Positions 55,247 to 64,000 are shown, counted from the stretch's first letter. The stretch: DNA of 64,000 nt from an uncultured Maritimibacter sp. (GCF_937129605.1 NZ_CAKZNN010000007.1), one strand, 5' to 3'. The notes: generated by a model from the letters alone, not told the origin. Made by a program: numbers and translations.

Positions 55247-56245
55247 ATGCGTCTTACGGTCAAGCAAATGGAGGTCTTCCACGCAATCGTGGTCGCTGGC
55301 TCCATCAGCCAAGCCAAACGTGTGCTCGGGCTGTCCCAGCCGACGATCTCGCAGCAACTCGCCAAGATGGAAGAATTGCTGGGTGTGCAGCTCATCCATC
55401 GCGGGCGGGGCGAAAGCCTGCGCCTGACGGCGGCTGGAGAATACTGGTACAAGGCCAGCAACCGTATCCTGACCGAGTTCGAGAACGCCGAACAACAGCA
55501 CCGCATCCTCTTTGACGAGAAACGTCTGACTCTTCACTTCGGCACGACGCCCTCGCTCCGTGGCCGCTTTACCGAGGTGGCGGCGCAGACCGCGCTCGAG
55601 CTCGACCAGTTCGCGCGCTTCGATTTCGACTGGGGCCTGACCTCGGCGGAGGTCGTCGAAAACATCAACGCGCACAAGTTCAACTGCGGCGTCGTCTCGG
55701 CGGCAAGCATCGAGGACCAGCGCGCGTCGTTTCACATCGAGTTCCTGTTCAAGGACCGCATCGTCTGGGCCGTGCCCGCCGATGTCCCGGACGAGCTGAT
55801 CGCGCTGGCGCTCGACCGGCTCGATGTCGAACCGGGCGCCGAGGCGCTGTCGCGCTACGTCGACGTGACGCCGCCGATCCCGTGGCGCGAACGCTCGGAC
55901 AACTGGTATCGCTCGCAACTGCCCTTCGCCGCGCCCTATTTCGGCTGCGTTACGCACCAGGCAGCCGTCGATGTGGTGGCGGCGGGTCTTGCCACCTGTC
56001 ACACGCCGATCTCGCTCCTGCCCAACCTGCCCGAACAGGTGCGCGAGCGGATCAAGATCTTCGACATCGGCGAGCATATTCGCGAAGTGGTCTTTGTGAT
56101 GCCCAAGCATCTGATGAGCCTCAGGCCCTTTGCCATGTATGCCACCAAGATCTCGGAATACATCCGCGCCACCTATTCCGACGCGCAGTTCGTGGATCAG
56201 ATCCTGCCCATGCCCCGGATCGACCATCTGGCGGCGGCTGAGTGA
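55247..56245 (+). CDS. LysR-family transcriptional regulator
   Basis: HTH FHAIVVAGSISQAKRVLGLSQPTISQQLAKMEELLGVQLIHR..LTAAG. Confidence 0.9.
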   Translation: MRLTVKQMEVFHAIVVAGSISQAKRVLGLSQPTISQQLAKMEELLGVQLIHRGRGESLRLTAAGEYWYKASNRILTEFENAEQQHRILFDEKRLTLHFGTTPSLRGRFTEVAAQTALELDQFARFDFDWGLTSAEVVENINAHKFNCGVVSAASIEDQRASFHIEFLFKDRIVWAVPADVPDELIALALDRLDVEPGAEALSRYVDVTPPIPWRERSDNWYRSQLPFAAPYFGCVTHQAAVDVVAAGLATCHTPISLLPNLPEQVRERIKIFDIGEHIREVVFVMPKHLMSLRPFAMYATKISEYIRATYSDAQFVDQILPMPRIDHLAAAE

Positions 56246-56295
56246 CGCCCTGCCGCCTTGCGCGGCGGCCCTGTCGCGGCGCGGCATAAGGTTTT

Positions 56296-56312
56296 TCTAT
56301 CTGATACATAGA
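56296..56312. promoter_or_regulatory. Candidate LysR recognition site upstream of the PQQ dehydrogenase
   Basis: Interrupted palindrome TCTAT-N7-ATAGA containing T-N11-A (56298/56310). Confidence 0.55.
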
Positions 56313-56391
56313 CCCATCGGATACGTCCCCGCGTTCCTATGACCTTAGTCGTACCCCGCCCGACGGGGACGCTGACGCAGGGAGGAATAAC

Positions 56392-58137
56392 ATGCGCACA
56401 TTGTCCACATCCGTGGCGGCGCTCGCCGCTACGGGATTGCTGTCTACTGCCCTCTGGGCCGACCCAGCCACGCCGGAACGCCTTGTCAATGCCGGGACCG
56501 ATGCCGAAGCCGCCAACTGGCTCACGGTCCACCGCACCTATGACAGCCACCGCTATTCGCCGCTGGACGAGATCACGCCGGAAAACGCCTCCGGCCTGAA
56601 ACTGGCCTTCGCCGTACCGCTGGGCGGAACCGAACCGTCGGCCTTCGGCGCAGGCGCGATGGAAACGACGCCGCTCGTCAAGGACGGCAAGATGTATGTC
56701 ACCGACCCCTGGGGCACCACGTACAAGATCGACGTTTCGACGGGCACCCGGGGCCAGATCGAGTGGATCTGCGATACCGCGATCGACAAGGACCCCTCCC
56801 TCGGGATCCTGCTCGCCAACCGGGGCGTGGCGCTGTCGGGCGATGTTGTCATATCCAATCTTCCTGACGGCCGTGTGGTGGCCTGCGACGATGCCTCGGG
56901 CGACATCGTGTGGGAACAGCAGACCGCCGATCAGCCGGGCGAAGGCTTTACGGGTGCGCCACTTGCCGTTGGGGACAAGGTCATTGTCGGCCAGTCCTAT
57001 GGCGACTGGGCCACACGGGGCTGGATCGCCGCCCTCGACGCGGCGACAGGTGAGGAAGTCTGGCGCTTCTACACCGTGCCGGAACCGGGTCAGCCCGGCT
57101 CGGAGACCTGGCTGTGCGAAGAAACGGGCAATCCCGATTGCTGGAAGACCGGCGGGGCCGCTGCCTGGGTGACCGGATCCTACGACCCGGAATCGAACAC
57201 ATTGATCTATGGTACGGGCAACCCCGTGCCGATGTTCGACCCGGAGTATCGCCCGGGCGATAACCTCTATTCCAACTCCGCCATTGCGCTCGACGCCGAT
57301 ACCGGCGAATTGAAATGGCACTTCCAGTATACGCCCGGCGACTACTTCGATTATGACGAAGTCGGCATTCACCTGCTGATCGACAAGGAAATCGACGGCG
57401 AAATGCGCAAGGTCGTGGGGCACTTCGGTCGAAACGGGTTCTTCTACAACCTCGATCGCACCAACGGGTCCTTCATCAACGCCGGCCAGTATGTCGAGAG
57501 GCTCAACTGGACCGACGGCGTCGATCCCAAGACAGGAAAGCCGCTGAATTACGACCCGAACGCAACGCTCCAGGCCTATGCGCAAGACGTCGTGCTGCGT
57601 CGTGACGGAGGGCCCGTCGAAAACTGTCCACACCTTCAAGGTGGCATCAACTTCTGGCCGACCGCCTATAACCCCGCGACCGGCATGGCCTATGGCCATT
57701 CGATCGAAGGCTGCTCGGAGTTGTCGACTGTTCCCGTCGCGCCCGAAGACGTGATGCAGGGCGCAATCTTCACCGGCGGCTCCAATGCTGATTCCGGCGA
57801 AATCGACGGCTCGATCGTTCAACTCGACGTCGCCACAGGTCAGGTCGTCAAGAAAGAGATGCGCGAGTATCCCGGTTATGCCGGCGTCCTGCTCTCGGGT
57901 GATCTGGTCTGGGTCGGCGAGCTGGACGGCACCTTCGGCGCCTACGATGCCGAAACGCTGGAACAGGTCTGGTCCACCAACCTGGGTGGGTCCTTCAAGG
58001 CACCGGCGATGACCTACGCGGTCGACGGCAAGCAGTATGTCGCCATTGTTTCAGGTCCCCTCGGCACTGGCTCCTTTGGCCATCCAGACATCGAACAGAC
58101 GCAGGGCGCCAACATGCTCTACGTCTTCTCGCTCTGA
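56392..58137 (+). CDS. Periplasmic PQQ-dependent dehydrogenase (methanol/ethanol family, divergent)
   Basis: Signal peptide; RYSPLDEI, ETTP, NRG, RGWIAALDAATGEEVWRF, GSYDP, GTGNP, FDYD, GRNGFFY.LDRTNG, YAVDGKQYV. Confidence 0.93.
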   Translation: MRTLSTSVAALAATGLLSTALWADPATPERLVNAGTDAEAANWLTVHRTYDSHRYSPLDEITPENASGLKLAFAVPLGGTEPSAFGAGAMETTPLVKDGKMYVTDPWGTTYKIDVSTGTRGQIEWICDTAIDKDPSLGILLANRGVALSGDVVISNLPDGRVVACDDASGDIVWEQQTADQPGEGFTGAPLAVGDKVIVGQSYGDWATRGWIAALDAATGEEVWRFYTVPEPGQPGSETWLCEETGNPDCWKTGGAAAWVTGSYDPESNTLIYGTGNPVPMFDPEYRPGDNLYSNSAIALDADTGELKWHFQYTPGDYFDYDEVGIHLLIDKEIDGEMRKVVGHFGRNGFFYNLDRTNGSFINAGQYVERLNWTDGVDPKTGKPLNYDPNATLQAYAQDVVLRRDGGPVENCPHLQGGINFWPTAYNPATGMAYGHSIEGCSELSTVPVAPEDVMQGAIFTGGSNADSGEIDGSIVQLDVATGQVVKKEMREYPGYAGVLLSGDLVWVGELDGTFGAYDAETLEQVWSTNLGGSFKAPAMTYAVDGKQYVAIVSGPLGTGSFGHPDIEQTQGANMLYVFSL

Positions 58138-58155
58138 TCCGAGACCCCCAACTGG

Positions 58156-58184
58156 TTTCCGGCCGCAGTCAACGCGGCCGGAAA
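58156..58184. other. Perfect 11-bp intergenic stem-loop between dehydrogenase and cytochrome genes
   Basis: TTTCCGGCCGC-AGTCAAC-GCGGCCGGAAA; no long T tail, so a stabiliser or partial terminator. Confidence 0.6.
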
Positions 58185-58240
58185 TCGTCTCTACCCCTAC
58201 GAAACGCGCAAACGACAAGACGATCGGAAAGTCACTCCTG

Positions 58241-58762
58241 ATGAAGGCACGAACCACCCTCACCGCCGCGGCCAGCCTCGGCCTCGCGCTTCTCACCGCA
58301 CCGCTCATGGCGCAGGACGCCACGTTCAACCCTGAAGACTACGACATCGCGCGCGGCAAGGAGGTGTTCGAGCGCATCGGCGTCTGCGTTCAGTGCCACG
58401 GCTGGGACGGCAACGGCATGGGCCGCAACCCGCGTTCGGTCGGGATCGCGCCGAACCTGCGCGAGTTTCCCGATGATGCCGAGCTGCTGCACGAAGTCAT
58501 TGCCTGCGGTCGGCCTTACACCGAAATGCCGTATCACGACCGCAATGCCTATTCGGATGGCCGGTGCTACGACATGACGCTCGACGACTTCGAGGAGGGC
58601 GATGCGCCGTCGCGCGGGAAATCCATTCGTGACGACGATATCGACAACCTCGTGGCCTATATGCTCACCGACGTGATCGGCGCTGGTGAAACCACGCTCG
58701 AGCAATGCGAAAAATTCTTTGAGCCGGGTCACCGCAACTGCGCGCCGCTGGCCAACAGGTAA
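58241..58762 (+). CDS. Periplasmic monoheme cytochrome c
   Basis: Signal peptide; CVQCH heme motif, APNL, TEMP (candidate distal Met), DDDIDNLVAYM. Confidence 0.88.
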   Translation: MKARTTLTAAASLGLALLTAPLMAQDATFNPEDYDIARGKEVFERIGVCVQCHGWDGNGMGRNPRSVGIAPNLREFPDDAELLHEVIACGRPYTEMPYHDRNAYSDGRCYDMTLDDFEEGDAPSRGKSIRDDDIDNLVAYMLTDVIGAGETTLEQCEKFFEPGHRNCAPLANR

Positions 58763-58765
58763 GCC

Positions 58766-59539
58766 ATGCGGACCGCGATCACACCCATGCTCCTCGCGGC
58801 GCTTGCCGCCGGGGGCGTTCTGGCCAGCGGGGGCGCCATGGCGCAGGACCGGGACCGGTCCGCGCTCGAAGCACCCTTCGACATCTGGGATGCGCAACTG
58901 GGCGCGCCGGTGTCGATCATCCCTGCCGTGGATGTGAACGAACTGGCCTGCGGCACGAACGGCGGCCCCTATTCGCTGCCCTTGAGCGAACCTACCGACT
59001 TCATGTCCTGCCCGCCCGAAGCATCGGGCTTGCGTGAAGTCCATTTTTCCTACGACGACGAACTGGACTACGTCGCCCGCGCGATGGAGTCCGAATACGC
59101 CGTACTGCAAGACGGGACGACGGTGTTTTCCCACAAGGTCATGGTCTCGGTGCTCGTCAGCGAAGACGGCATCATCGAGGGTATCCGTATCCTGACCGAC
59201 CCCCGCATCCCCGCCCGCGAACGTCGCCGCGCCGTGACGCTCATGCGCAATCTGGAGGCCCGCTACGGTGACTGGACCCTCGCCTGCGAGGACATGCCGC
59301 TTGCGGAAGGCGAGATGATGATCGGCAACGTCTTTACCAAACGGGTCTGCACGGGGGTCTCACCCGAGGGCGACACCCACCTGCGCCTTGATGCGCGCTA
59401 TCTGCGCAAGGCCGGGCAACAGGCGGTGAACCCGGAAACCCGCGAACTCAATTCCACCTATTTCGAAAGTTTCTCGCGCCTCGAAATGGTGCGCGCACCC
59501 TACGAACCGACGCCGCCGCCCGTGAGGGCGACGCGATGA
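58766..59539 (+). CDS. Hypothetical secreted protein
   Basis: Signal peptide ending AMA; four Cys; 3 bp after the cytochrome stop. Confidence 0.75.
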   Translation: MRTAITPMLLAALAAGGVLASGGAMAQDRDRSALEAPFDIWDAQLGAPVSIIPAVDVNELACGTNGGPYSLPLSEPTDFMSCPPEASGLREVHFSYDDELDYVARAMESEYAVLQDGTTVFSHKVMVSVLVSEDGIIEGIRILTDPRIPARERRRAVTLMRNLEARYGDWTLACEDMPLAEGEMMIGNVFTKRVCTGVSPEGDTHLRLDARYLRKAGQQAVNPETRELNSTYFESFSRLEMVRAPYEPTPPPVRATR

Positions 59540-59541
59540 CC

Positions 59542-60303
59542 CTATTCGCTGTAGGTGCCGTCCGCATTGAAGGTGCGCGTGACGCGGGCCCCCTCCATCA
59601 CCGCGCCCCGCATATTTGCGCGCGAGAACCGGCTCTCGCTGATCTGCGCCCCGGTGAAGTTGGTGTCGCGCAGGTCGGTGCCCCAGAAGTCGGTGTATTC
59701 GATCGTCGCACCCTCGAAGTCCGCCTTGACCGCGTCGCTTTTCACCATCGAGACATAGGACATGGTGACCCCGGCAAAGCTCGACCGGCCAAAGCTCGCC
59801 TCGCTCATGCCCGTGTTGTGAAACGTGGCGCCGGACAGGTCCGCGTTGTTCACCCGTGCCGCTGTCAGATGGGCGTTGTCGATCCGCGCCCCTGCCAGCA
59901 CCGCGCTGGTCATTCGGCTGTGCTGCATCCGCGCCCCGTTGAGGTTGGCCCCGGCGAAGTTCGCCGCGGACAGTTGTGCCTCGTAGAACAATGCAGCGGA
60001 CAGGTCGGCCCCGGTGAAATCGGCCTGGCGCAGTTCCGCGACATTGAAATTCGCGTCGACCGCGGTGACATCGACAAAGATCGTGCCGTTCAGGATCGCC
60101 CGATGAAACCGTGCGCCGGTCAGGTCGGCGCCGGTCAGATCGACGCCCGACAGGTCGGCCTTCTTGAAATTCGCGTAGGCAAGGTCGCAGCCCCGGCATT
60201 CGGTCCGCGAGCCATCGCGAAGCGCCGCAACGATTGCTGGGTCGGCGCCGGCCCAAACGGGGGTGGCGGTGAGGGCTGTGATGACGGCGGTTACGATGCG
60301 CAT
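59542..60303 (-). CDS. Secreted pentapeptide-repeat protein (PedD-like)
   Basis: Signal peptide, CRGCDL cap, many A(D/N)LxG/ANF repeats. Confidence 0.92.
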   Translation of the reverse strand: MRIVTAVITALTATPVWAGADPAIVAALRDGSRTECRGCDLAYANFKKADLSGVDLTGADLTGARFHRAILNGTIFVDVTAVDANFNVAELRQADFTGADLSAALFYEAQLSAANFAGANLNGARMQHSRMTSAVLAGARIDNAHLTAARVNNADLSGATFHNTGMSEASFGRSSFAGVTMSYVSMVKSDAVKADFEGATIEYTDFWGTDLRDTNFTGAQISESRFSRANMRGAVMEGARVTRTFNADGTYSE

Positions 60304-60338
60304 GGGGGATCTCCTCCTGTTGCGGGAAAGGATAGGAC

Positions 60339-60863
60339 ATGATCCCGGCCAAATCCAGCATTTTATCTTTTATAATCATAATGTTATCTGCGCCCTCCGC
60401 GCCCGCGGAAGATATGCGCCAAGACGCCGACGTCGTGACCGGCGAGGCCGAGATCCTTGACGCCGACGTGATCAAGATTGGCCCGCAGCGCGTGATCCTC
60501 TGGGGCGTGGACGCGCCGGAGCGGAACCAGTCCTGCTACAAGGACGGCGAACGCTGGGGCTGCGCGGATGCCGCAAAGCGCACGCTCGAACTGCTCGCGG
60601 GCCGCGGCGAAGTGACCTGTTTTCTCACTGGCGAAGCCGACCCCTTTGGCCGCCGCTACGGCGTCTGCGAAAGCGGCGGCGACGCGATCAATGAAGAGAT
60701 GGTGCGCCGCGGCATGGCGCTGGCCTATCTCGACCAGTCCCAAGATTACATCGACGCCCAGATGGACGCGATCACCGACGAAGTGGGCCTATGGGAGGTC
60801 GGCGTCGAGTTCGAGGAACCCTGGAAATTCCGCCTGCAAAACACACCCGGAGGCTTCCGTTGA
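60339..60863 (+). CDS. Secreted thermonuclease (SNase)-fold protein, probably lacking a catalytic Arg
   Basis: LDADVI, GVDAPE, DPFGR, INEEMVRRGMA, GLW motifs. Confidence 0.85.
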   Translation: MIPAKSSILSFIIIMLSAPSAPAEDMRQDADVVTGEAEILDADVIKIGPQRVILWGVDAPERNQSCYKDGERWGCADAAKRTLELLAGRGEVTCFLTGEADPFGRRYGVCESGGDAINEEMVRRGMALAYLDQSQDYIDAQMDAITDEVGLWEVGVEFEEPWKFRLQNTPGGFR

Positions 60864-61609
60864 GCGACCAGAGCATGGACGACCGTTCCCCCCTTGCCGC
60901 GCGTCTCGTCGGCAACCGCGCCTATGACGACCTGTTTCGCTGGGTGCTGCTCATGGCGCTCATCTGTCTGGGGGCCGTGATCCTGTGGGATTACGGCTAT
61001 CTCGCCTATCTCATTGACAACGACACCTCGGGCATCTCGACGCTGATCATCGCGATCTTCGGGGCCGCGAGTCTTTACTGCCTATGGTTCCTTTTCGACC
61101 TGTCCGGCGAGTTGTCGGCGCTCGCCCGCGTGATGAAGGGGCTCGAGGATGGCGGTGTGCCCGACATGGCCACGGCGGTGGACAAGCTGCGCAACCGCCG
61201 CCGCGTGGCACGGATCGTGAGCGATCTGAATACCATGCGCGTGACGACCGCCGGGTCGCCCGAAACGGTGTTGCAGGCCTTTGCCTCGGAACTGCGTGGC
61301 CCGGTGCGGCTGGGCGTGTTCATCTCGGACACGCTCTACAAACTCGGCCTCCTTGGAACGGTGATCGGGTTCATCCTCATGCTCGTCTCGATGCGCGATC
61401 TGGGCGAGTTCGACGTGGAAACCATGCGCTCGGCGCTGCAAAGCATGACCGGCGGCATGGCCGTCGCGCTCCTGACCACGATCACGGGCCTTTCCGCAGG
61501 TGTTCTCCTGCGGATGCAGTTCAACGTGCTCGACAGCCTCGCGCTTCGGATCACCCAGACTCTCGTGCGGTTTTCCGAGGTCGTGCTGCCCGCGGTCACG
61601 AGGGACTAG
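60860..61609 (+). CDS. MotA/TolQ/ExbB proton-channel family protein
   Basis: LGLLGTVIGF and GMAVALLTTITGL helices plus two N-terminal TMs; TTG 60860 overlaps the previous stop (alternative ATG 60875). Confidence 0.85.
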   Translation: MSDQSMDDRSPLAARLVGNRAYDDLFRWVLLMALICLGAVILWDYGYLAYLIDNDTSGISTLIIAIFGAASLYCLWFLFDLSGELSALARVMKGLEDGGVPDMATAVDKLRNRRRVARIVSDLNTMRVTTAGSPETVLQAFASELRGPVRLGVFISDTLYKLGLLGTVIGFILMLVSMRDLGEFDVETMRSALQSMTGGMAVALLTTITGLSAGVLLRMQFNVLDSLALRITQTLVRFSEVVLPAVTRD

Positions 61610-61612
61610 CAG

Positions 61613-62272
61613 ATGTTCGAGGACATCCGGGACGGTGACTACGACGCCTTTACCGACCTGCTGTTCAACGCACTGGTGGGGTTTGCCTTCATGTTCTTCA
61701 TCGCCTTCGCGATGATCAATCCCGTGGCCGAAGAGGGCAAGATCGACACCGAGGTCGAGATCCTGATCACTGTGCGTTGGCCCGATGGCCACGAGGACGA
61801 CATCGACGTCTATGTCGAGGACCCGGTGGGCAACATTGTCTGGTATCACGAACGCGAGGCGGGACTCATGCATCTGGACCGCGACGACCGGGGGCAGTTC
61901 AAGGACGTGCTTCTCGTGAACGGGGCCGAGATCGAGAACCCGCTCAATCAGGAAACCGTGTCGGTGCGGGGCCTAATGAACGGTGAATACGTGGTCAACG
62001 TGGTGCATTTCATCGCGACCTCGACCGATCCGGTGCGGGTGACGGTCAAGGTCGAAAAGATGAACCCCTCGGTGCGCGTGGTCTACTACGGTGAAACCGA
62101 CCTGACCGGCACCGGGGAAGAGGTGACGACCGTCCGCTTCACGCTCGACGACGACGAGATCATCGACCTCAACAACCGGCCCAAATCGCTCGTCGCGCTC
62201 ACCCGGCAGACCAAGACCAACACGCCCGGCGGTGATATGTCGCTCGGGTCGGGGGAGGTCGTGCGGCAATGA
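61613..62272 (+). CDS. Single-TM protein with membrane-proximal Asp (atypical ExbD/MotB-like partner)
   Basis: AFTDLLFNALVGFAFMFFIAFAMI, then a beta-rich periplasmic domain with DDIDVYVEDP and LDRDDRG. Confidence 0.7.
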   Translation: MFEDIRDGDYDAFTDLLFNALVGFAFMFFIAFAMINPVAEEGKIDTEVEILITVRWPDGHEDDIDVYVEDPVGNIVWYHEREAGLMHLDRDDRGQFKDVLLVNGAEIENPLNQETVSVRGLMNGEYVVNVVHFIATSTDPVRVTVKVEKMNPSVRVVYYGETDLTGTGEEVTTVRFTLDDDEIIDLNNRPKSLVALTRQTKTNTPGGDMSLGSGEVVRQ

Positions 62273-62847
62273 CCCAGACGATCATCACGCTCACGGTAGG
62301 CTATGCCCTCGTCGCCGTCCTCGTCGCGCTCGTCGTGCTTCAGGCGCGGTTTCACTGGCTGATCAAGGGCGGGCTGACGCTGGCGCTCGCGGCGCTTCTG
62401 TTCCTGACCTATCAGGGCGTCGGCAAACTGCGCGGCCTGCCGTCGGATACGAACCCGCCCGAGCGTTTCCGGCTCTACTGGGCGCAGATCGAGGAGCCGG
62501 ACAAGCTCACGGGTGACCCCGGTGCGATCTTTCTGTGGCTGGGCGAGCTTGACGCGGATTACTACCCCGTCGGCCAGCCCCGCGCACACCGCCTGCCCTA
62601 TTCCGACGAACTGGCCGCGCTGGTCCTAGAAGCACAGGCCAAGGTGGCCAAGGGCGAGGATATCGCGGGCGAGGTGTCCGAGGACGAGGCGGAAGAGGAC
62701 CCGGCCGAGACCCTGGCGGAAGAGGCGATGGAGGAGGCCGAACAGGGCAATTCGTCGCGCATTGGCACGCGGGTTCTGAGTTTCGACTTCGGCAATCTGC
62801 GGTTCGACACGACGCCCGCGCCGGTCACGCCGGAAAAGGACAACTAG
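62269..62847 (+). CDS. Hypothetical membrane-anchored protein with an acidic linker
   Basis: Two N-terminal TMs; EVSEDEAEEDPAETLAEEAMEEAE stretch; ATGA overlap with the previous gene. Confidence 0.72.
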   Translation: MTQTIITLTVGYALVAVLVALVVLQARFHWLIKGGLTLALAALLFLTYQGVGKLRGLPSDTNPPERFRLYWAQIEEPDKLTGDPGAIFLWLGELDADYYPVGQPRAHRLPYSDELAALVLEAQAKVAKGEDIAGEVSEDEAEEDPAETLAEEAMEEAEQGNSSRIGTRVLSFDFGNLRFDTTPAPVTPEKDN

Positions 62848-63572
62848 CCGGTGAGGCGGGAGTAAGCGTCCACCAGATCGACGGCCCCGCTCTGGTCGAT
62901 CAGCGCGGCGGGCGATCCGGTGGCGACCACGCGCCCCTTCACCAGCATGATCACGTCATCGGCGCGCTCGACCTCGTCCACCAGATGCGTGGCCCAAAGA
63001 ACCGCGACGGAATTGCCGGCGGCAAGCCGGTGAATGTCCTCGACCAGCGCGCGCCGCGAGGGCGTATCCAGCCCGGCGGACGGTTCATCCATGATGATGA
63101 GGTCCGGATCATTGATAAGCGCGCGCGCGATCTCGACCTTGCGCTGCTGCCCGCCCGACAGATTGCGCACCGGACGCTTGAGCAGATCAGCGAGGCCAAA
63201 TTGCTCGGCCAGCGCCTCGATCCGTTCATCGAGCGCACGTCCGCCCAGCCCAAACAGCCGCCCGTGAAACCGCAGGTTCGCCCGAATCGACATATCGAGG
63301 TCCACGGACCGCGCCTGAAACACGACCCCCATGCGGCGGCGAATGTCGGACCCGGCGTCACGATGGGTCATGCCGAACACCTCGACCGCCCCCGCGTCCG
63401 GCGCAAAAAGCCCCGCGATGATCTGGAAAAGCGTCGACTTGCCCGCACCATTGGGACCGAGCAGCCCCACGAACCGCCCCGGCGCGATCCTGAGCGACAC
63501 GCCGTCAAGCGCCGTGACGGCGCCGTAACGCTTGACCACATCCTGCATTTCCAGCACCGGCGTTTCGGTCAT
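62844..63572 (-). CDS. ABC ATPase of the PQQ-alcohol-dehydrogenase-associated type
   Basis: LLGPNGAGKSTLF, GVVFQ..DLDMS..NLRFHG, RKVEIARAL, VLWATHLVDE. Confidence 0.82.
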   Translation of the reverse strand: MTETPVLEMQDVVKRYGAVTALDGVSLRIAPGRFVGLLGPNGAGKSTLFQIIAGLFAPDAGAVEVFGMTHRDAGSDIRRRMGVVFQARSVDLDMSIRANLRFHGRLFGLGGRALDERIEALAEQFGLADLLKRPVRNLSGGQQRKVEIARALINDPDLIIMDEPSAGLDTPSRRALVEDIHRLAAGNSVAVLWATHLVDEVERADDVIMLVKGRVVATGSPAALIDQSGAVDLVDAYSRLTG

Positions 63573-64000
63573 TCTTCCCCCACCATGCGCTGGGCTTCCT
63601 CGCGCACCCAAGTCTCGTCGCGCAGGTCGCGGGCGACGCCCAGGCGCCGGTCCTCGACGACCTCCACCGGCCGACCATCCAGCACCACGACCCGATCCGC
63701 AAGCCGCGCGGCATCCTCGGGATCATGCGTGACGAGGATCACTGTGGGCCGGTAGGTGCGGATCACCCTTGCGATAAGCCCGGATAAGTCGCGGGCGAGT
63801 TTCCGGTCAATCGAGACGAAAGGCTCGTCGAGGATCAAGAGCCCGGGCTTCACGGCGAGCGCCCGGGCCAGCGCCACCCGGCGCTGCATCCCTCCCGACA
63901 ACTCGCCCGGCAGGGCATCCTCGTAGCCCGCGAGCCCCATCTCGACCAAGAGCTTGCGCGCCCCCGGCGCGTCGATGTTGTCCGAAATGATGGTCAGATT
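63569..64000 (-). CDS. NitT/TauT-type ABC ATPase, 3' part (5' end outside the window)
   Basis: PGELSGGMQRRVALARAL, ILDEPFVSID, VTHDPEDAARLADRVVVL. Confidence 0.85.
   Translation of the reverse strand, partial: NLTIISDNIDAPGARKLLVEMGLAGYEDALPGELSGGMQRRVALARALAVKPGLLILDEPFVSIDRKLARDLSGLIARVIRTYRPTVILVTHDPEDAARLADRVVVLDGRPVEVVEDRRLGVARDLRDETWVREEAQRMVGEE

What the first reader, a model, noticed from the sequence alone, without database searches (positions are those of the whole stretch)
55247..64000. Accessory locus combining a divergent PQQ dehydrogenase, periplasmic partners, a PMF motor-like module and PQQ/lanthanide-type ABC ATPases
Seen in sequence: ten or more adjacent genes. They are LysR, the PQQ dehydrogenase, cytochrome c, an unknown secreted protein, a pentapeptide-repeat protein, a coupled four-gene operon (SNase-fold, MotA/ExbB, Asp-TM partner, anchored acidic protein) and two ABC ATPases. 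Established: in the Pseudomonas putida ped cluster, PQQ-ADHs cluster with a cytochrome c (PedF), a pentapeptide protein (PedD) and an ABC system (PedA1A2BC) that aids lanthanide-dependent growth. Methylorubrum has the LutAEF ABC system. I know of no characterised PQQ cluster that contains an SNase-ExbB-like operon. Inference: this may be an undescribed metallo-quinoprotein system with its own PMF-energised cofactor (lanthanide/Ca/PQQ) acquisition or loading machinery.
Basis: partly seen in the sequence, partly recalled or inferred. Interest (0 to 1): 0.85.

Follow-up and report, generated by a model that had tools for sequence, protein, structure and literature searches.

The report
MotA-like motor inside PQQ dehydrogenase cluster
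A conserved gene island for a periplasmic PQQ alcohol dehydrogenase carries an undescribed three-protein relative of the ion-driven Ton/Tol/flagellar motors, and that motor is found only in genomes that have such dehydrogenases, so it is probably an unrecognised energised step in making or supplying these enzymes.

Summary
Window 55247-64000 holds LysR, a PQQ alcohol dehydrogenase, cytochrome c, a secreted Cys protein, a PedD-like pentapeptide protein, a coupled SNase-like/MotA-ExbB-like/g3/g4 operon and two ABC ATPases. The cluster continues about 6 kb beyond the window with the rest of a PedA1A2BC-type system.

In 80 related genome loci almost every one with enough flank keeps the dehydrogenase block beside the MotA-g3-g4 trio, even where block order is rearranged. 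Nested clades sit beside a different, Ca-type quinohemoprotein dehydrogenase. All 36 genomes with a close g3 homologue have a PQQ-ADH: 26/26 versus 93/375 in the class sample (p = 2e-15), plus 10/10 in a phylum sample.

Corrections:
- The g3 transmembrane Asp is present here but replaced in 50 of 80 relatives.
- The acidic beta-sandwich motifs of g3 also occur in orphan and phage trios, so they are not PQQ-specific.
- The SNase-like gene travels with the PedD/dehydrogenase block, not with the trio.
- The link is not lanthanide-specific.
- The genome lacks pqqC.

Ion-driven operation and a cofactor supply or maturation role remain inferences. No paper found describes this module.

The parts
55247..56245 (+). 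LysR-family regulator at the head of the cluster
   Evidence: PF00126 E 2e-18. A homologue is present at the same place in 41 of 80 related loci.
56392..58137 (+). Periplasmic PQQ alcohol dehydrogenase of a distinct clade: D320-Y-D322 motif, Asp205 in place of the metal-ligand Glu, no vicinal Cys-Cys
   Evidence: PF01011 E 2e-57 and TIGR03075 436 bits against a 480 cut-off. The closest solved structure is PedH 6ZCW/6ZCV, E 3e-76. D320, D322, E323 and D205 are each present in 58 of 59 clade members.
58241..58762 (+). c-type cytochrome, the likely electron acceptor (PedF/ExaB position)
   Evidence: PF00034 E 1e-8, CxxCH motif. It is syntenic in 53 related loci.
58766..59539 (+). Secreted 257-aa protein of unknown family with 4 conserved Cys and an FxYDDE motif; always with the dehydrogenase block
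   Evidence: No Pfam or NCBIfam hit. Found in 65 related loci; conservation list.
59542..60303 (-). PedD-like periplasmic pentapeptide-repeat protein
   Evidence: PF00805 E 3e-42. Adjacent to the SNase-like gene in nearly every related locus, including rearranged ones. PedD naming follows PMC12997753.
60339..60863 (+). Secreted SNase-fold protein, probably not a nuclease: the Arg35 equivalent is Ile53, the acidic metal ligands are mostly kept, and there are 4 conserved Cys
   Evidence: PF00565 E 6e-8. It moves with the PedD/dehydrogenase block, not with the trio, in L088, L120, L122-124 and L127.
60875..61609 (+). MotA/ExbB/TolQ-family membrane protein with 4 predicted TM helices; the putative ion-channel pentamer subunit
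   Evidence: PF01618 E 3e-10, 40 bits against a 22.9 cut-off. It is the fourth paralogue in the genome. D51, D153, K157, T163, D181 and T203 are kept in at least 90% of 77 homologues.
61613..62272 (+). g3: ExbD/TolR-like N-terminal transmembrane helix (FTDLLFN) followed by a periplasmic beta-sandwich with invariant acidic motifs; no known family
   Evidence: No Pfam, NCBIfam or PADLOC hit. Alignment A1. AF2 pLDDT 71, TM helix 9-35 and beta-sandwich 48-187. No significant PDB fold match. 1954 clusters at 50% identity in the exhaustive search.
62269..62847 (+). g4: two TM helices, a small periplasmic beta/alpha domain, an acidic disordered linker and a conserved C-terminal F..PAP..P.K motif; occupies the TonB/TolA position in the operon
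   Evidence: No family hit. Alignment A2. AF2 pLDDT 76. No PDB fold match. It follows g3 in tier-1 loci and most tier-2 loci.
62844..63611 (-). PedB-type ABC ATPase of the PQQ-ADH-associated ABC-2 system
   Evidence: TIGR03864 E 2e-84, 282 bits against a 302 cut-off. Its partners PedA2, PedA1 and PedC lie beyond the window.
63569..64000 (-). 3' part of a NitT/TauT-type ABC importer ATPase (the gene runs to 64279; its permease and NMT1-type binding protein follow)
   Evidence: Best NCBIfam hits are sulfonate, sulfate and nitrate ATPases. The importer is conserved inside the cluster in 40-43 related loci.

Best explanation
The locus is a horizontally mobile, ped-type periplasmic quinoprotein system of marine and freshwater Alphaproteobacteria; here the host is a Maritimibacter. 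It has three parts.

1. A dehydrogenase block: a PQQ-ADH with the lanthanide-type D-x-D signature, cytochrome c, a secreted Cys protein, a PedD-like pentapeptide protein and a secreted, probably non-catalytic SNase-fold protein.
2. A PedA1A2BC-type ABC system together with a NitT/TauT-type importer.
3. A dedicated three-protein membrane module: MotA/ExbB-like, g3 and g4.

The trio is most likely a stator-type ion-driven motor. Its channel subunit is MotA/ExbB-like. g3 inserts an ExbD/TolR-like helix into that channel and exposes a beta-sandwich in the periplasm. g4 reaches into the periplasm through an acidic linker that ends in a short docking motif. The work of the motor serves periplasmic PQQ dehydrogenases. 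The most probable service is supply or insertion of their cofactors (Ca2+/Ln3+ and/or PQQ), or another maturation step.

Shown: gene content, tight coupling, conserved linkage, and strict genome co-occurrence with PQQ-ADHs.

Inferred: ion-driven operation (from homology and conserved channel residues), periplasmic topology, and the cofactor or maturation role.

My sub-odds are 0.9 for functional coupling to PQQ-ADHs, 0.65 for an ion-driven motor, and 0.4 for a cofactor supply or loading role.
For: Linkage:
- Of 80 genome loci with a g3 homologue at 54-89% identity, nearly all with enough flank carry PQQDH, cytochrome c, unk257, PedD and SNase next to MotA-g3-g4, plus Ped ABC genes.
- Block order and orientation differ in L088, L107, L120, L122-124, L127, L130, L134, L136, L145 and L151, yet linkage persists.
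- A nested clade (L040-L045) abuts a different dehydrogenase, a 732-758-aa quinohemoprotein at 32-34% identity.
- In another class, the trio plus a lipoprotein lies 5-30 kb from a PQQ-ADH.

Phylogenetic profile:
- In the class sample, 26 of 26 genomes with tier-1 g3 have TIGR03075, against 93 of 375 others; Fisher p = 2e-15.
- In the phylum sample the figure is 10 of 10.

Motor features:
- PF01618 hit.
- Conserved GLLGT163 and T203 motifs and an invariant acidic D153 in the MotA-like protein.
- An FTDLLFN helix in g3 that resembles the genome's own TolR and ExbD helices.
- Tight translational coupling.

Context:
- Closest solved structure is the lanthanide enzyme PedH, and the D-Y-D-E motif is near-invariant in the clade (58/59).
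- The genome has no pqqC.
- The genome has only one TonB-dependent receptor.
Against: - There is no experiment and no expression data; no RNA runs were found.
- The canonical proton-binding Asp of the B-subunit helix is replaced in 50 of 80 relatives: Ala15 with Lys22 in 37, Ser15 with Lys22 in 3, and Val15 with Gln22 in 10.
- The acidic motifs of the g3 beta-sandwich are also conserved in orphan tier-2 trios and in Rhizobium phage copies, so they do not point specifically to a PQQ or lanthanide role.
- Neither g3 nor g4 matches any solved fold, so their activities are unknown.
- Only about 22% of PQQ-ADH genomes carry the trio (26 of 119), so it is not generally required.
- The whole island is patchily distributed: it is absent from all other sampled genomes of the same family. 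Part of the synteny therefore reflects co-transfer.
- Five well-flanked loci lack a PQQ-ADH within 10 kb.
Confidence: 0.55

Rival explanations
1. Ton-like outer-membrane energiser. The trio works like ExbB-ExbD-TonB, with g4 as the periplasm-spanning transducer. Its C-terminal motif docks to an unidentified outer-membrane protein, which imports a scarce lanthanide complex, PQQ or the alcohol substrate.
For: - g4 sits at the TonB/TolA position in the operon and has an anchor, a disordered acidic linker and a conserved terminal strand and motif.
- The genome lacks pqqC and so must obtain PQQ from outside.
- The genome has only one classical TonB-dependent receptor.
- In other clades a conserved lipoprotein follows g4.
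Against: - No outer-membrane barrel or TonB-dependent receptor gene is conserved in any of the loci.
- g4 has two TM helices, no hit to any TonB or TolA family model and no fold match to a TonB or TolA C-terminal domain. The SHLS motif was checked by eye only.
- 17 of 26 carrier genomes make their own PQQ.
Confidence: 0.2
2. Scaffold or tether. The trio does no cofactor work. It positions the dehydrogenase and cytochrome at the inner membrane for electron transfer to the respiratory chain, or it senses and relays enzyme or metal status to the LysR regulator.
For: - The trio sits directly beside quinohemoprotein dehydrogenases with no other accessory genes in L040-L045. This suggests direct contact with the enzyme.
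- A LysR gene heads the cluster in 41 loci.
Against: - Conservation of the MotA/ExbB channel motifs and charged residues is hard to explain for a passive tether.
- Orphan and phage trios have no dehydrogenase to tether.
Confidence: 0.12
3. Independent envelope or phage-related module that only hitch-hikes. The trio is a general-purpose motor, for example for envelope maintenance, phage defence or superinfection exclusion as in Zorya. It was captured once on a mobile PQQ island.
For: - Distant trios (30-36% identity) occur without any conserved neighbours and in Rhizobium phages 16-3 and RHph_N34.
- There are weak ZorA hits over the MotA domain.
- The island is patchy and sometimes flanked by transposases, or carried on a plasmid (L123).
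Against: - All 36 tier-1 genomes have a PQQ-ADH, including 0.8-2-Mb streamlined genomes.
- Linkage survives rearrangement and a change of dehydrogenase type.
- A separate tier-2 branch (L057, L062) also lies near a PQQ-like propeller.
- No Zorya effector genes are present, and no ZorB hit was found.
Confidence: 0.1

Closest known systems
Pseudomonas putida ped cluster (PedE/PedH, PedF, PedD, PedA1A2BC)
   Same: - A PQQ-ADH closest to PedH among solved structures.
- A c-type cytochrome and a periplasmic pentapeptide protein.
- All four PedA1, PedA2, PedB and PedC types (TIGR03863, 03866, 03864, 03861). Names follow PMC12997753.
   Different: - The cluster adds a MotA/ExbB-like trio, an SNase-fold protein, a secreted Cys protein and a NitT/TauT importer.
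- I saw no PedG/XoxJ-type protein, no PedS2/R2 two-component system (a LysR stands in that place) and no aldehyde dehydrogenase.
- The dehydrogenase has Asp for the ligand Glu and lacks the Cys-Cys ring.
- The ped review mentions no motor genes in the passages I searched.
ExbB-ExbD-TonB (Ton) and TolQ-TolR-TolA (Tol) energisers
   Same: - The three-gene order is channel protein, single-helix partner, anchored periplasm-reaching protein.
- PF01618 domain with conserved Thr-containing motifs.
- An ExbD/TolR-like helix motif in g3.
   Different: - g3 has no ExbD domain, and g4 has no TonB or TolA domain and has two TM helices.
- No receptor, TolB or Pal gene is linked.
- The helix Asp is lost in most relatives.
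- Canonical Ton and Tol operons exist elsewhere in this genome.
TolQ-like motors with non-canonical 'transpore-helix' partners (TPH-vWA; Williams-Jones et al. 2025, PMC12204202)
   Same: Same concept: a TolQ/ExbB-like pentamer paired with a B subunit that keeps only the pore helix and carries a different periplasmic domain.
   Different: - The periplasmic domain here is an acidic beta-sandwich, not vWA.
- There is a third, 2-TM partner.
- This trio and its PQQ link are not described in the section of that paper that I read.
MxaACKL/MxaRS accessory system of Ca-dependent methanol dehydrogenase (from my own knowledge, not tested here)
   Same: It is a precedent for an energy-consuming, membrane-associated accessory set needed to insert the metal into a periplasmic PQQ dehydrogenase.
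   Different: That system is ATP-driven, with a MoxR AAA+ protein and vWA proteins. It is unrelated in sequence to the trio.

Membership tests
ped-type PQQ-ADH gene cluster | PQQ-ADH of the methanol/ethanol family | tested here: met
   PF01011 E 2e-57. TIGR03075 E 1.5e-130, but 436 bits is below the curated 480 cut-off, so this is a divergent member.
ped-type PQQ-ADH gene cluster | PedA1 (binding protein), PedA2 (beta-propeller), PedB (ATPase) and PedC (ABC-2 permease) | tested here: met
   - TIGR03866: 301.7 bits, above the 287.3 cut-off.
- TIGR03861: 325.5 bits, above 241.35.
- TIGR03863: 353.8 bits, below 413.6.
- TIGR03864: 282.5 bits, below 302.25.
Each is the best hit for its protein.
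ped-type PQQ-ADH gene cluster | PedD pentapeptide protein and a c-type cytochrome beside the dehydrogenase | tested here: met
   PF00805 E 3e-42 and PF00034 E 1e-8. No specific PedF (c550) family model matched, so only the cytochrome class is shown.
Lanthanide-dependent PQQ-ADH (XoxF/PedH/ExaF) | Asp two residues after the catalytic Asp (D-x-D) | tested here: met
   D320-Y-D322 aligns with the PedH D-F-D. It is present in 58 of 59 clade members.
Lanthanide-dependent PQQ-ADH (XoxF/PedH/ExaF) | Metal-ligand Glu and vicinal Cys-Cys ring near PQQ | tested here: not met
   The Glu position is Asp205 (58 of 59). The Cys-Cys position reads LG.
Lanthanide-dependent PQQ-ADH (XoxF/PedH/ExaF) | Activity depends on Ln3+ | not testable with these tools
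   This needs enzyme assays.
Ton system (ExbB-ExbD-TonB) | ExbB-type channel protein (PF01618) | tested here: met
   E 3e-10, 40.4 bits, over residues 158-229 only.
Ton system (ExbB-ExbD-TonB) | ExbD family domain with an essential TM Asp | tested here: not met
   g3 has no ExbD or TolR family hit. Asp15 is present here but replaced in 50 of 80 relatives.
Ton system (ExbB-ExbD-TonB) | TonB with a C-terminal domain, and a TonB-dependent receptor partner | tested here: not met
   g4 has no family hit and no fold match. No receptor gene is found in the related loci.
Flagellar stator (MotA-MotB) | MotB with an OmpA-like peptidoglycan-binding domain; flagellar gene context | tested here: not met
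   g3 and g4 have no OmpA-family hit. The context is a dehydrogenase cluster.
Zorya anti-phage system | ZorA with a long C-terminal tail, ZorB, and ZorC/D or ZorE effectors | tested here: not met
   Only weak ZorA hits (at most 22 bits) over the MotA domain of a 244-aa protein. g3, g4 and the SNase-like protein have no PADLOC hit.
TPH-type non-canonical motor partners (PMC12204202) | TolR/ExbD-like pore helix on a protein with a vWA periplasmic domain | tested here: not met
   A pore-helix-like motif is present, but the periplasmic domain is a beta-sandwich, not vWA. The resemblance is in principle only.
Staphylococcal nuclease (SNase) family | SNase fold with catalytic Arg35, Glu43 and Arg87 and Ca ligands | tested here: inconclusive
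   The fold is met (PF00565 E 6e-8). The Arg35 equivalent is Ile53 here and is a hydrophobic residue or His in at least 73 of 76 homologues, with Arg not among the listed residues. The Asp and Glu ligands and the Arg87 equivalent are mostly kept. The residue mapping was done by hand against the S. aureus motifs recalled from memory.

The most novel reading that the evidence does not exclude
The MotA-like/g3/g4 trio is a TonB-independent, ion-driven machine dedicated to periplasmic quinoproteins. It would use membrane potential to capture, move or insert the metal (Ln3+/Ca2+) and/or PQQ into PQQ dehydrogenases. That would be a new functional output for the 5:2 motor superfamily and a missing energised step of the 'lanthanome'. 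The PedD-like DNA-mimic protein and the inactive SNase-fold protein may form a periplasmic chaperone pair for the same enzyme.
Probability: 0.3. Interest if true: 0.9.

Novelty: new variant of a known kind. Interest (0 to 1): 0.72.

Why it matters
PQQ and lanthanide enzymology has open questions. It is not known how the metal and PQQ reach and enter periplasmic dehydrogenases, nor what powers this in bacteria without a LutH-type TonB receptor.

This module is a conserved, unstudied relative of the ion-driven motors. It occurs only in genomes with PQQ-ADHs, including streamlined marine genomes of 0.8-2 Mb. That makes it a concrete, testable candidate for the energised step.

It would also add a new partner set, and possibly a new output, to the MotA/ExbB/TolQ motor superfamily. 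Its phage-borne cousins show that the basic trio is a portable device.

Tried and rejected
- Family searches of g3, g4, unk257, unk140 and unk288 in Pfam, NCBIfam, PADLOC and PHROGs gave nothing informative.
- A profile search of g3 against PDB gave only a weak P-domain-like hit, E 1.2.
- AlphaFold models of g3 and g4, searched with Foldseek against PDB, gave no hit with E <= 0.001.
- Testing whether the lipoprotein that follows g4 in other clades is a hidden homologue of unk257, unk288, unk140 or SNase gave hhalign probabilities below 1%.
- A search for RNA-seq runs found only metagenomic DNA holders.
- I considered a Zorya-like defence system and rejected it: no effectors, no ZorB, and a strict PQQ-ADH profile.
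- I considered a lanthanide-specific role and downgraded it. G276 has a single TIGR03075 match, the D-x-T quinohemoprotein enzyme beside its trio. G054, G121, G227 and G356 likewise show no D-x-D member of the methanol/ethanol family.
- I considered PQQ scavenging as the only role and downgraded it, because 17 of 26 carrier genomes have pqqC.
- I first called ORFs in high-GC loci greedily by length. This picked antisense frames, so I redid the calling with a GC3 filter.

Full report
**1. What is in the window**

- LysR, 55247-56245.
- A 581-aa PQQ dehydrogenase, 56392-58137: PF01011 E 2e-57; TIGR03075 436 bits, under the 480 cut-off.
- A c-type cytochrome, 58241-58762.
- A secreted 257-aa protein without family, 58766-59539.
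- A pentapeptide-repeat protein on the minus strand, 59542-60303.
- A four-gene plus-strand operon:
  - SNase-like, 60339-60863 (PF00565 E 6e-8).
  - MotA/ExbB-like, 60875-61609 (PF01618 E 3e-10).
  - g3, 61613-62272.
  - g4, 62269-62847.
- Two ABC ATPases on the minus strand, converging on that operon.

The operon genes are separated by 11 nt and 3 nt, and the last pair shares an ATGA overlap.

**2. The rest of the cluster**

The window is C7:386905-450904 of a 4.54-Mb assembly. The best named g3 match (93%) is from a Maritimibacter sp..

Reading on beyond the window shows the following.
- The first ATPase is PedB-type (TIGR03864).
- The second ATPase belongs to a NitT/TauT-type importer, with its permease and an NMT1-type binding protein.
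- On the plus strand follow a 140-aa secreted protein, PedA2 (TIGR03866), PedA1 (TIGR03863) and PedC (TIGR03861).
- On the minus strand follow a 288-aa membrane protein and an Lrp regulator.

With the pentapeptide protein (PedD-like) and the cytochrome, this is a ped-type cluster as defined for Pseudomonas (PMC12997753). The SNase/MotA operon sits in the middle of it.

**3. Is the motor module linked to PQQ dehydrogenases?**

g3 is the most distinctive protein and has many homologues.
- 2104 hits in the 90%-clustered database.
- 1954 clusters at 50% identity in the exhaustive search, 313 of them at E <= 1e-30.

*Neighbourhoods of individual homologues.* Three distant homologues all show the same ~18-gene cluster.

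*Eighty genome loci.* A scan of one genome per species returned 80 loci. They come from Rhodobacterales, Devosia, Hyphomicrobiaceae, Geminicoccales, Pelagibacteraceae, MarineAlpha bins, Microvirga, Chelativorans and others.
- tblastn with all cluster proteins shows that nearly every locus with enough flank has PQQDH, cytochrome c, unk257, PedD and SNase together with MotA-g3-g4 and the transport genes.
- The dehydrogenase block is inverted or moved relative to the trio in L088, L107, L120, L122-124, L127, L130, L134, L136, L145 and L151.
- The dehydrogenase block is duplicated in L134 and L136.
- Linkage is kept throughout.

*The g3 tree.*
- A large PQQ-linked clade contains a nested group (L040-L045). 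There the trio directly abuts a different enzyme: a 732-758-aa quinohemoprotein dehydrogenase, 32-34% identical, with a C-terminal haem domain.
- A sister clade has the trio followed by a conserved lipoprotein, with no dehydrogenase within 10 kb. Those genomes carry an XoxF-like D-Y-D dehydrogenase with Ped ABC genes elsewhere.

*Co-occurrence.*
- In an even sample of 401 genomes of the class, all 26 genomes with a tier-1 g3 (E < 1e-50; at least 16 families; genomes down to 0.8 Mb) have a TIGR03075 dehydrogenase. The figure is 93 of 375 for the rest. Fisher p = 2e-15.
- In a phylum-level sample, all 10 further carriers also have one, some of them from another class. In that class the dehydrogenase lies 5-30 kb from the trio.

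The refutation criterion is therefore not met. The association is strong.

*Caveat.* The island is patchy: it is absent from all other sampled genomes of the same family. It is sometimes plasmid-borne or flanked by transposases. Some of the synteny therefore reflects co-transfer. The rearranged variants and the change of dehydrogenase type argue that selection also keeps the genes together.

**4. What the trio is**

*The MotA-like protein.*
- It has a PF01618 domain.
- The GLLGT163 and T203 motifs typical of MotA/ExbB/TolQ are conserved, as are the charged residues D51, D153, K157 and D181.
- It is the fourth family member in the genome. A canonical ExbB-ExbD-ExbD-TonB operon lies about 30 kb downstream, and TolQRA lies on another contig.

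*g3.*
- It has an N-terminal helix, FTDLLFNALVGFAFMFF. This resembles the genome's own TolR (TPFVDVMLVLLIIFM) and ExbD helices.
- The helix is followed by a beta-sandwich (AF2 pLDDT 71) with invariant motifs WPDxxxDD[VI]DxYVxDPxGN..WY and LMHLDRDDRG.
- It matches no family and no solved fold.

*g4.*
- It has two TM helices and a small beta/alpha domain.
- An acidic disordered linker follows, then a conserved terminal F..PAP..P.K motif.
- It has no fold match.
- By the positive-inside rule its C-terminal part is periplasmic. This is my inference.

- The helix Asp of g3 (D15) is present in this copy but replaced in 50 of 80 relatives. It is Ala15 with Lys22 in 37, Ser15 with Lys22 in 3, and Val15 with Gln22 in 10. 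The classical B-subunit proton site is therefore not a family feature. An invariant acidic D153 of the MotA-like protein may take that role (inference).
- The acidic sandwich motifs also occur in distant orphan trios with no conserved neighbours. They also occur in Rhizobium phages 16-3 (p038-p040) and RHph_N34, which encode a 148-aa mini MotA (PF01618 E 7e-5) next to a g3-like protein. These motifs are a signature of the wider family and are not evidence for lanthanide binding.

**5. The dehydrogenase block**

- The closest solved structure to the enzyme is PedH (6ZCW, E 3e-76).
- It has the D320-Y-D322 motif that marks lanthanide enzymes. This rule is established knowledge of the family.
- It has Asp205 in place of the ligand Glu and no Cys-Cys ring.
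- These traits are near-invariant in 59 clade members.

The SNase-like protein keeps most acidic ligands and the Arg87 equivalent, but it has Ile at the Arg35 position. It is always next to the PedD-like gene and moves with that block, not with the trio.

Pentapeptide proteins mimic DNA and SNase folds bind nucleic acid, so the two proteins may form a periplasmic pair. This is speculation.

**6. Limits on the function**

*Not lanthanide-specific.*
- The trios of L040-L045 sit beside D-x-T (Ca-type) quinohemoproteins.
- One complete genome (G276) has no other TIGR03075 match at all.

*Not only PQQ scavenging.*
- 17 of 26 carrier genomes have pqqC.
- This genome and the quinohemoprotein-linked ones lack it.

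*Not universal.* About 22% of PQQ-ADH genomes carry the trio.

*Exceptions.* Of the five well-flanked loci without a PQQ-ADH, I examined L149 further. It has a glucose/sorbosone-type (PF07995) PQQ enzyme within 10 kb upstream.

The common denominator is a periplasmic PQQ enzyme. The best-supported reading is therefore an accessory, probably ion-driven, module that serves these enzymes. Its most likely service is cofactor (metal and/or PQQ) supply, insertion or another maturation step.

The rivals are a Ton-like outer-membrane energiser with an unknown receptor, a membrane tether or sensor, and a hitch-hiking general module.

**7. Comparison with what is known**

- The ped cluster accounts for the dehydrogenase, cytochrome, PedD and PedA1A2BC parts, but has no motor, SNase-like or unk257 genes.
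- Ton, Tol and Mot share only the channel protein and the pore-helix principle. The defining ExbD, TonB, TolA and MotB domains were tested and not found.
- The nearest published concept is the TolQ-like motor with a 'transpore-helix' partner that carries a vWA domain (PMC12204202). This trio follows the same principle with different domains.
- Full-text searches that link MotA/ExbB with PQQ or lanthanide found nothing relevant.
- Earlier notes of this scan report the same trio beside PQQ dehydrogenases in other genomes. I used them as leads. I re-tested the linkage and the phage occurrence myself.

**8. Verdict**

- It is a new variant within known kinds: a ped-type cluster combined with a member of the MotA/ExbB motor superfamily.
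- It is clearly testable, and it matters for lanthanide and PQQ biology and for motor diversity.

Noticed in passing
whole genome G000: The genome is 99.8% complete. It has three TIGR03075 matches, two of them full-length methanol/ethanol-family dehydrogenases. One of these is a second D-F-D (lanthanide-type) enzyme at C9:77567-79162. The genome has no pqqC, so it appears to depend on external PQQ.
   Followed up: partly
window 59542-60863 and loci L077-L156: The PedD-like pentapeptide gene and the SNase-fold gene are neighbours in nearly every related locus, whatever the orientation. This suggests that a DNA-mimic protein and an inactive nuclease-fold protein act as a pair.
   Followed up: partly
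window 61613-61720 (g3 helix) and 80 relatives: In 40 of 80 relatives the helix Asp15 is Ala or Ser and position 22 becomes Lys. In 10 more it is Val15 with Gln22 and Lys19. This looks like a coordinated change of the pore helix.
   Followed up: partly
beyond the window, C7 about 450473-452952 (extended coordinates 63569-66048): A NitT/TauT-type ABC importer (ATPase, permease, NMT1-type binding protein) of unknown substrate is conserved inside the PQQ cluster in 40-43 of the 80 related loci.
   Followed up: no
L169 (Rhizobium phage 16-3, p038-p040) and L170 (RHph_N34, EVC06_145-147): Phages carry a mini MotA/ExbB-like protein next to a g3-like protein and a third small protein. All are annotated as hypothetical.
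   Followed up: partly
L003, L004, L005, L006 (between LysR and the dehydrogenase): Relatives have a conserved gene of about 199 aa with no known family between LysR and the dehydrogenase. It is absent from this window, where the intergenic gap is 146 nt.
   Followed up: no
L039 and L105; L134 and L136: Some relatives carry three tandem copies of the dehydrogenase (L039, L105). Others carry two copies of the whole unk257-PedD-SNase-cytochrome-dehydrogenase block (L134, L136).
   Followed up: no
C7 about 480783-483048 (about 30 kb downstream of the window): A canonical ExbB-ExbD-ExbD-TonB operon lies here. The second ExbD has Asn instead of the helix Asp. The genome has only one TonB-dependent receptor (C9:524658).
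   Followed up: partly
L048-L056, L177-L181: In the clades where the trio is not beside a dehydrogenase, a conserved lipoprotein of about 245-290 aa follows g4, sometimes in 2-3 copies. It has a weak DUF3108-like hit. This makes a four-gene operon.
   Followed up: partly
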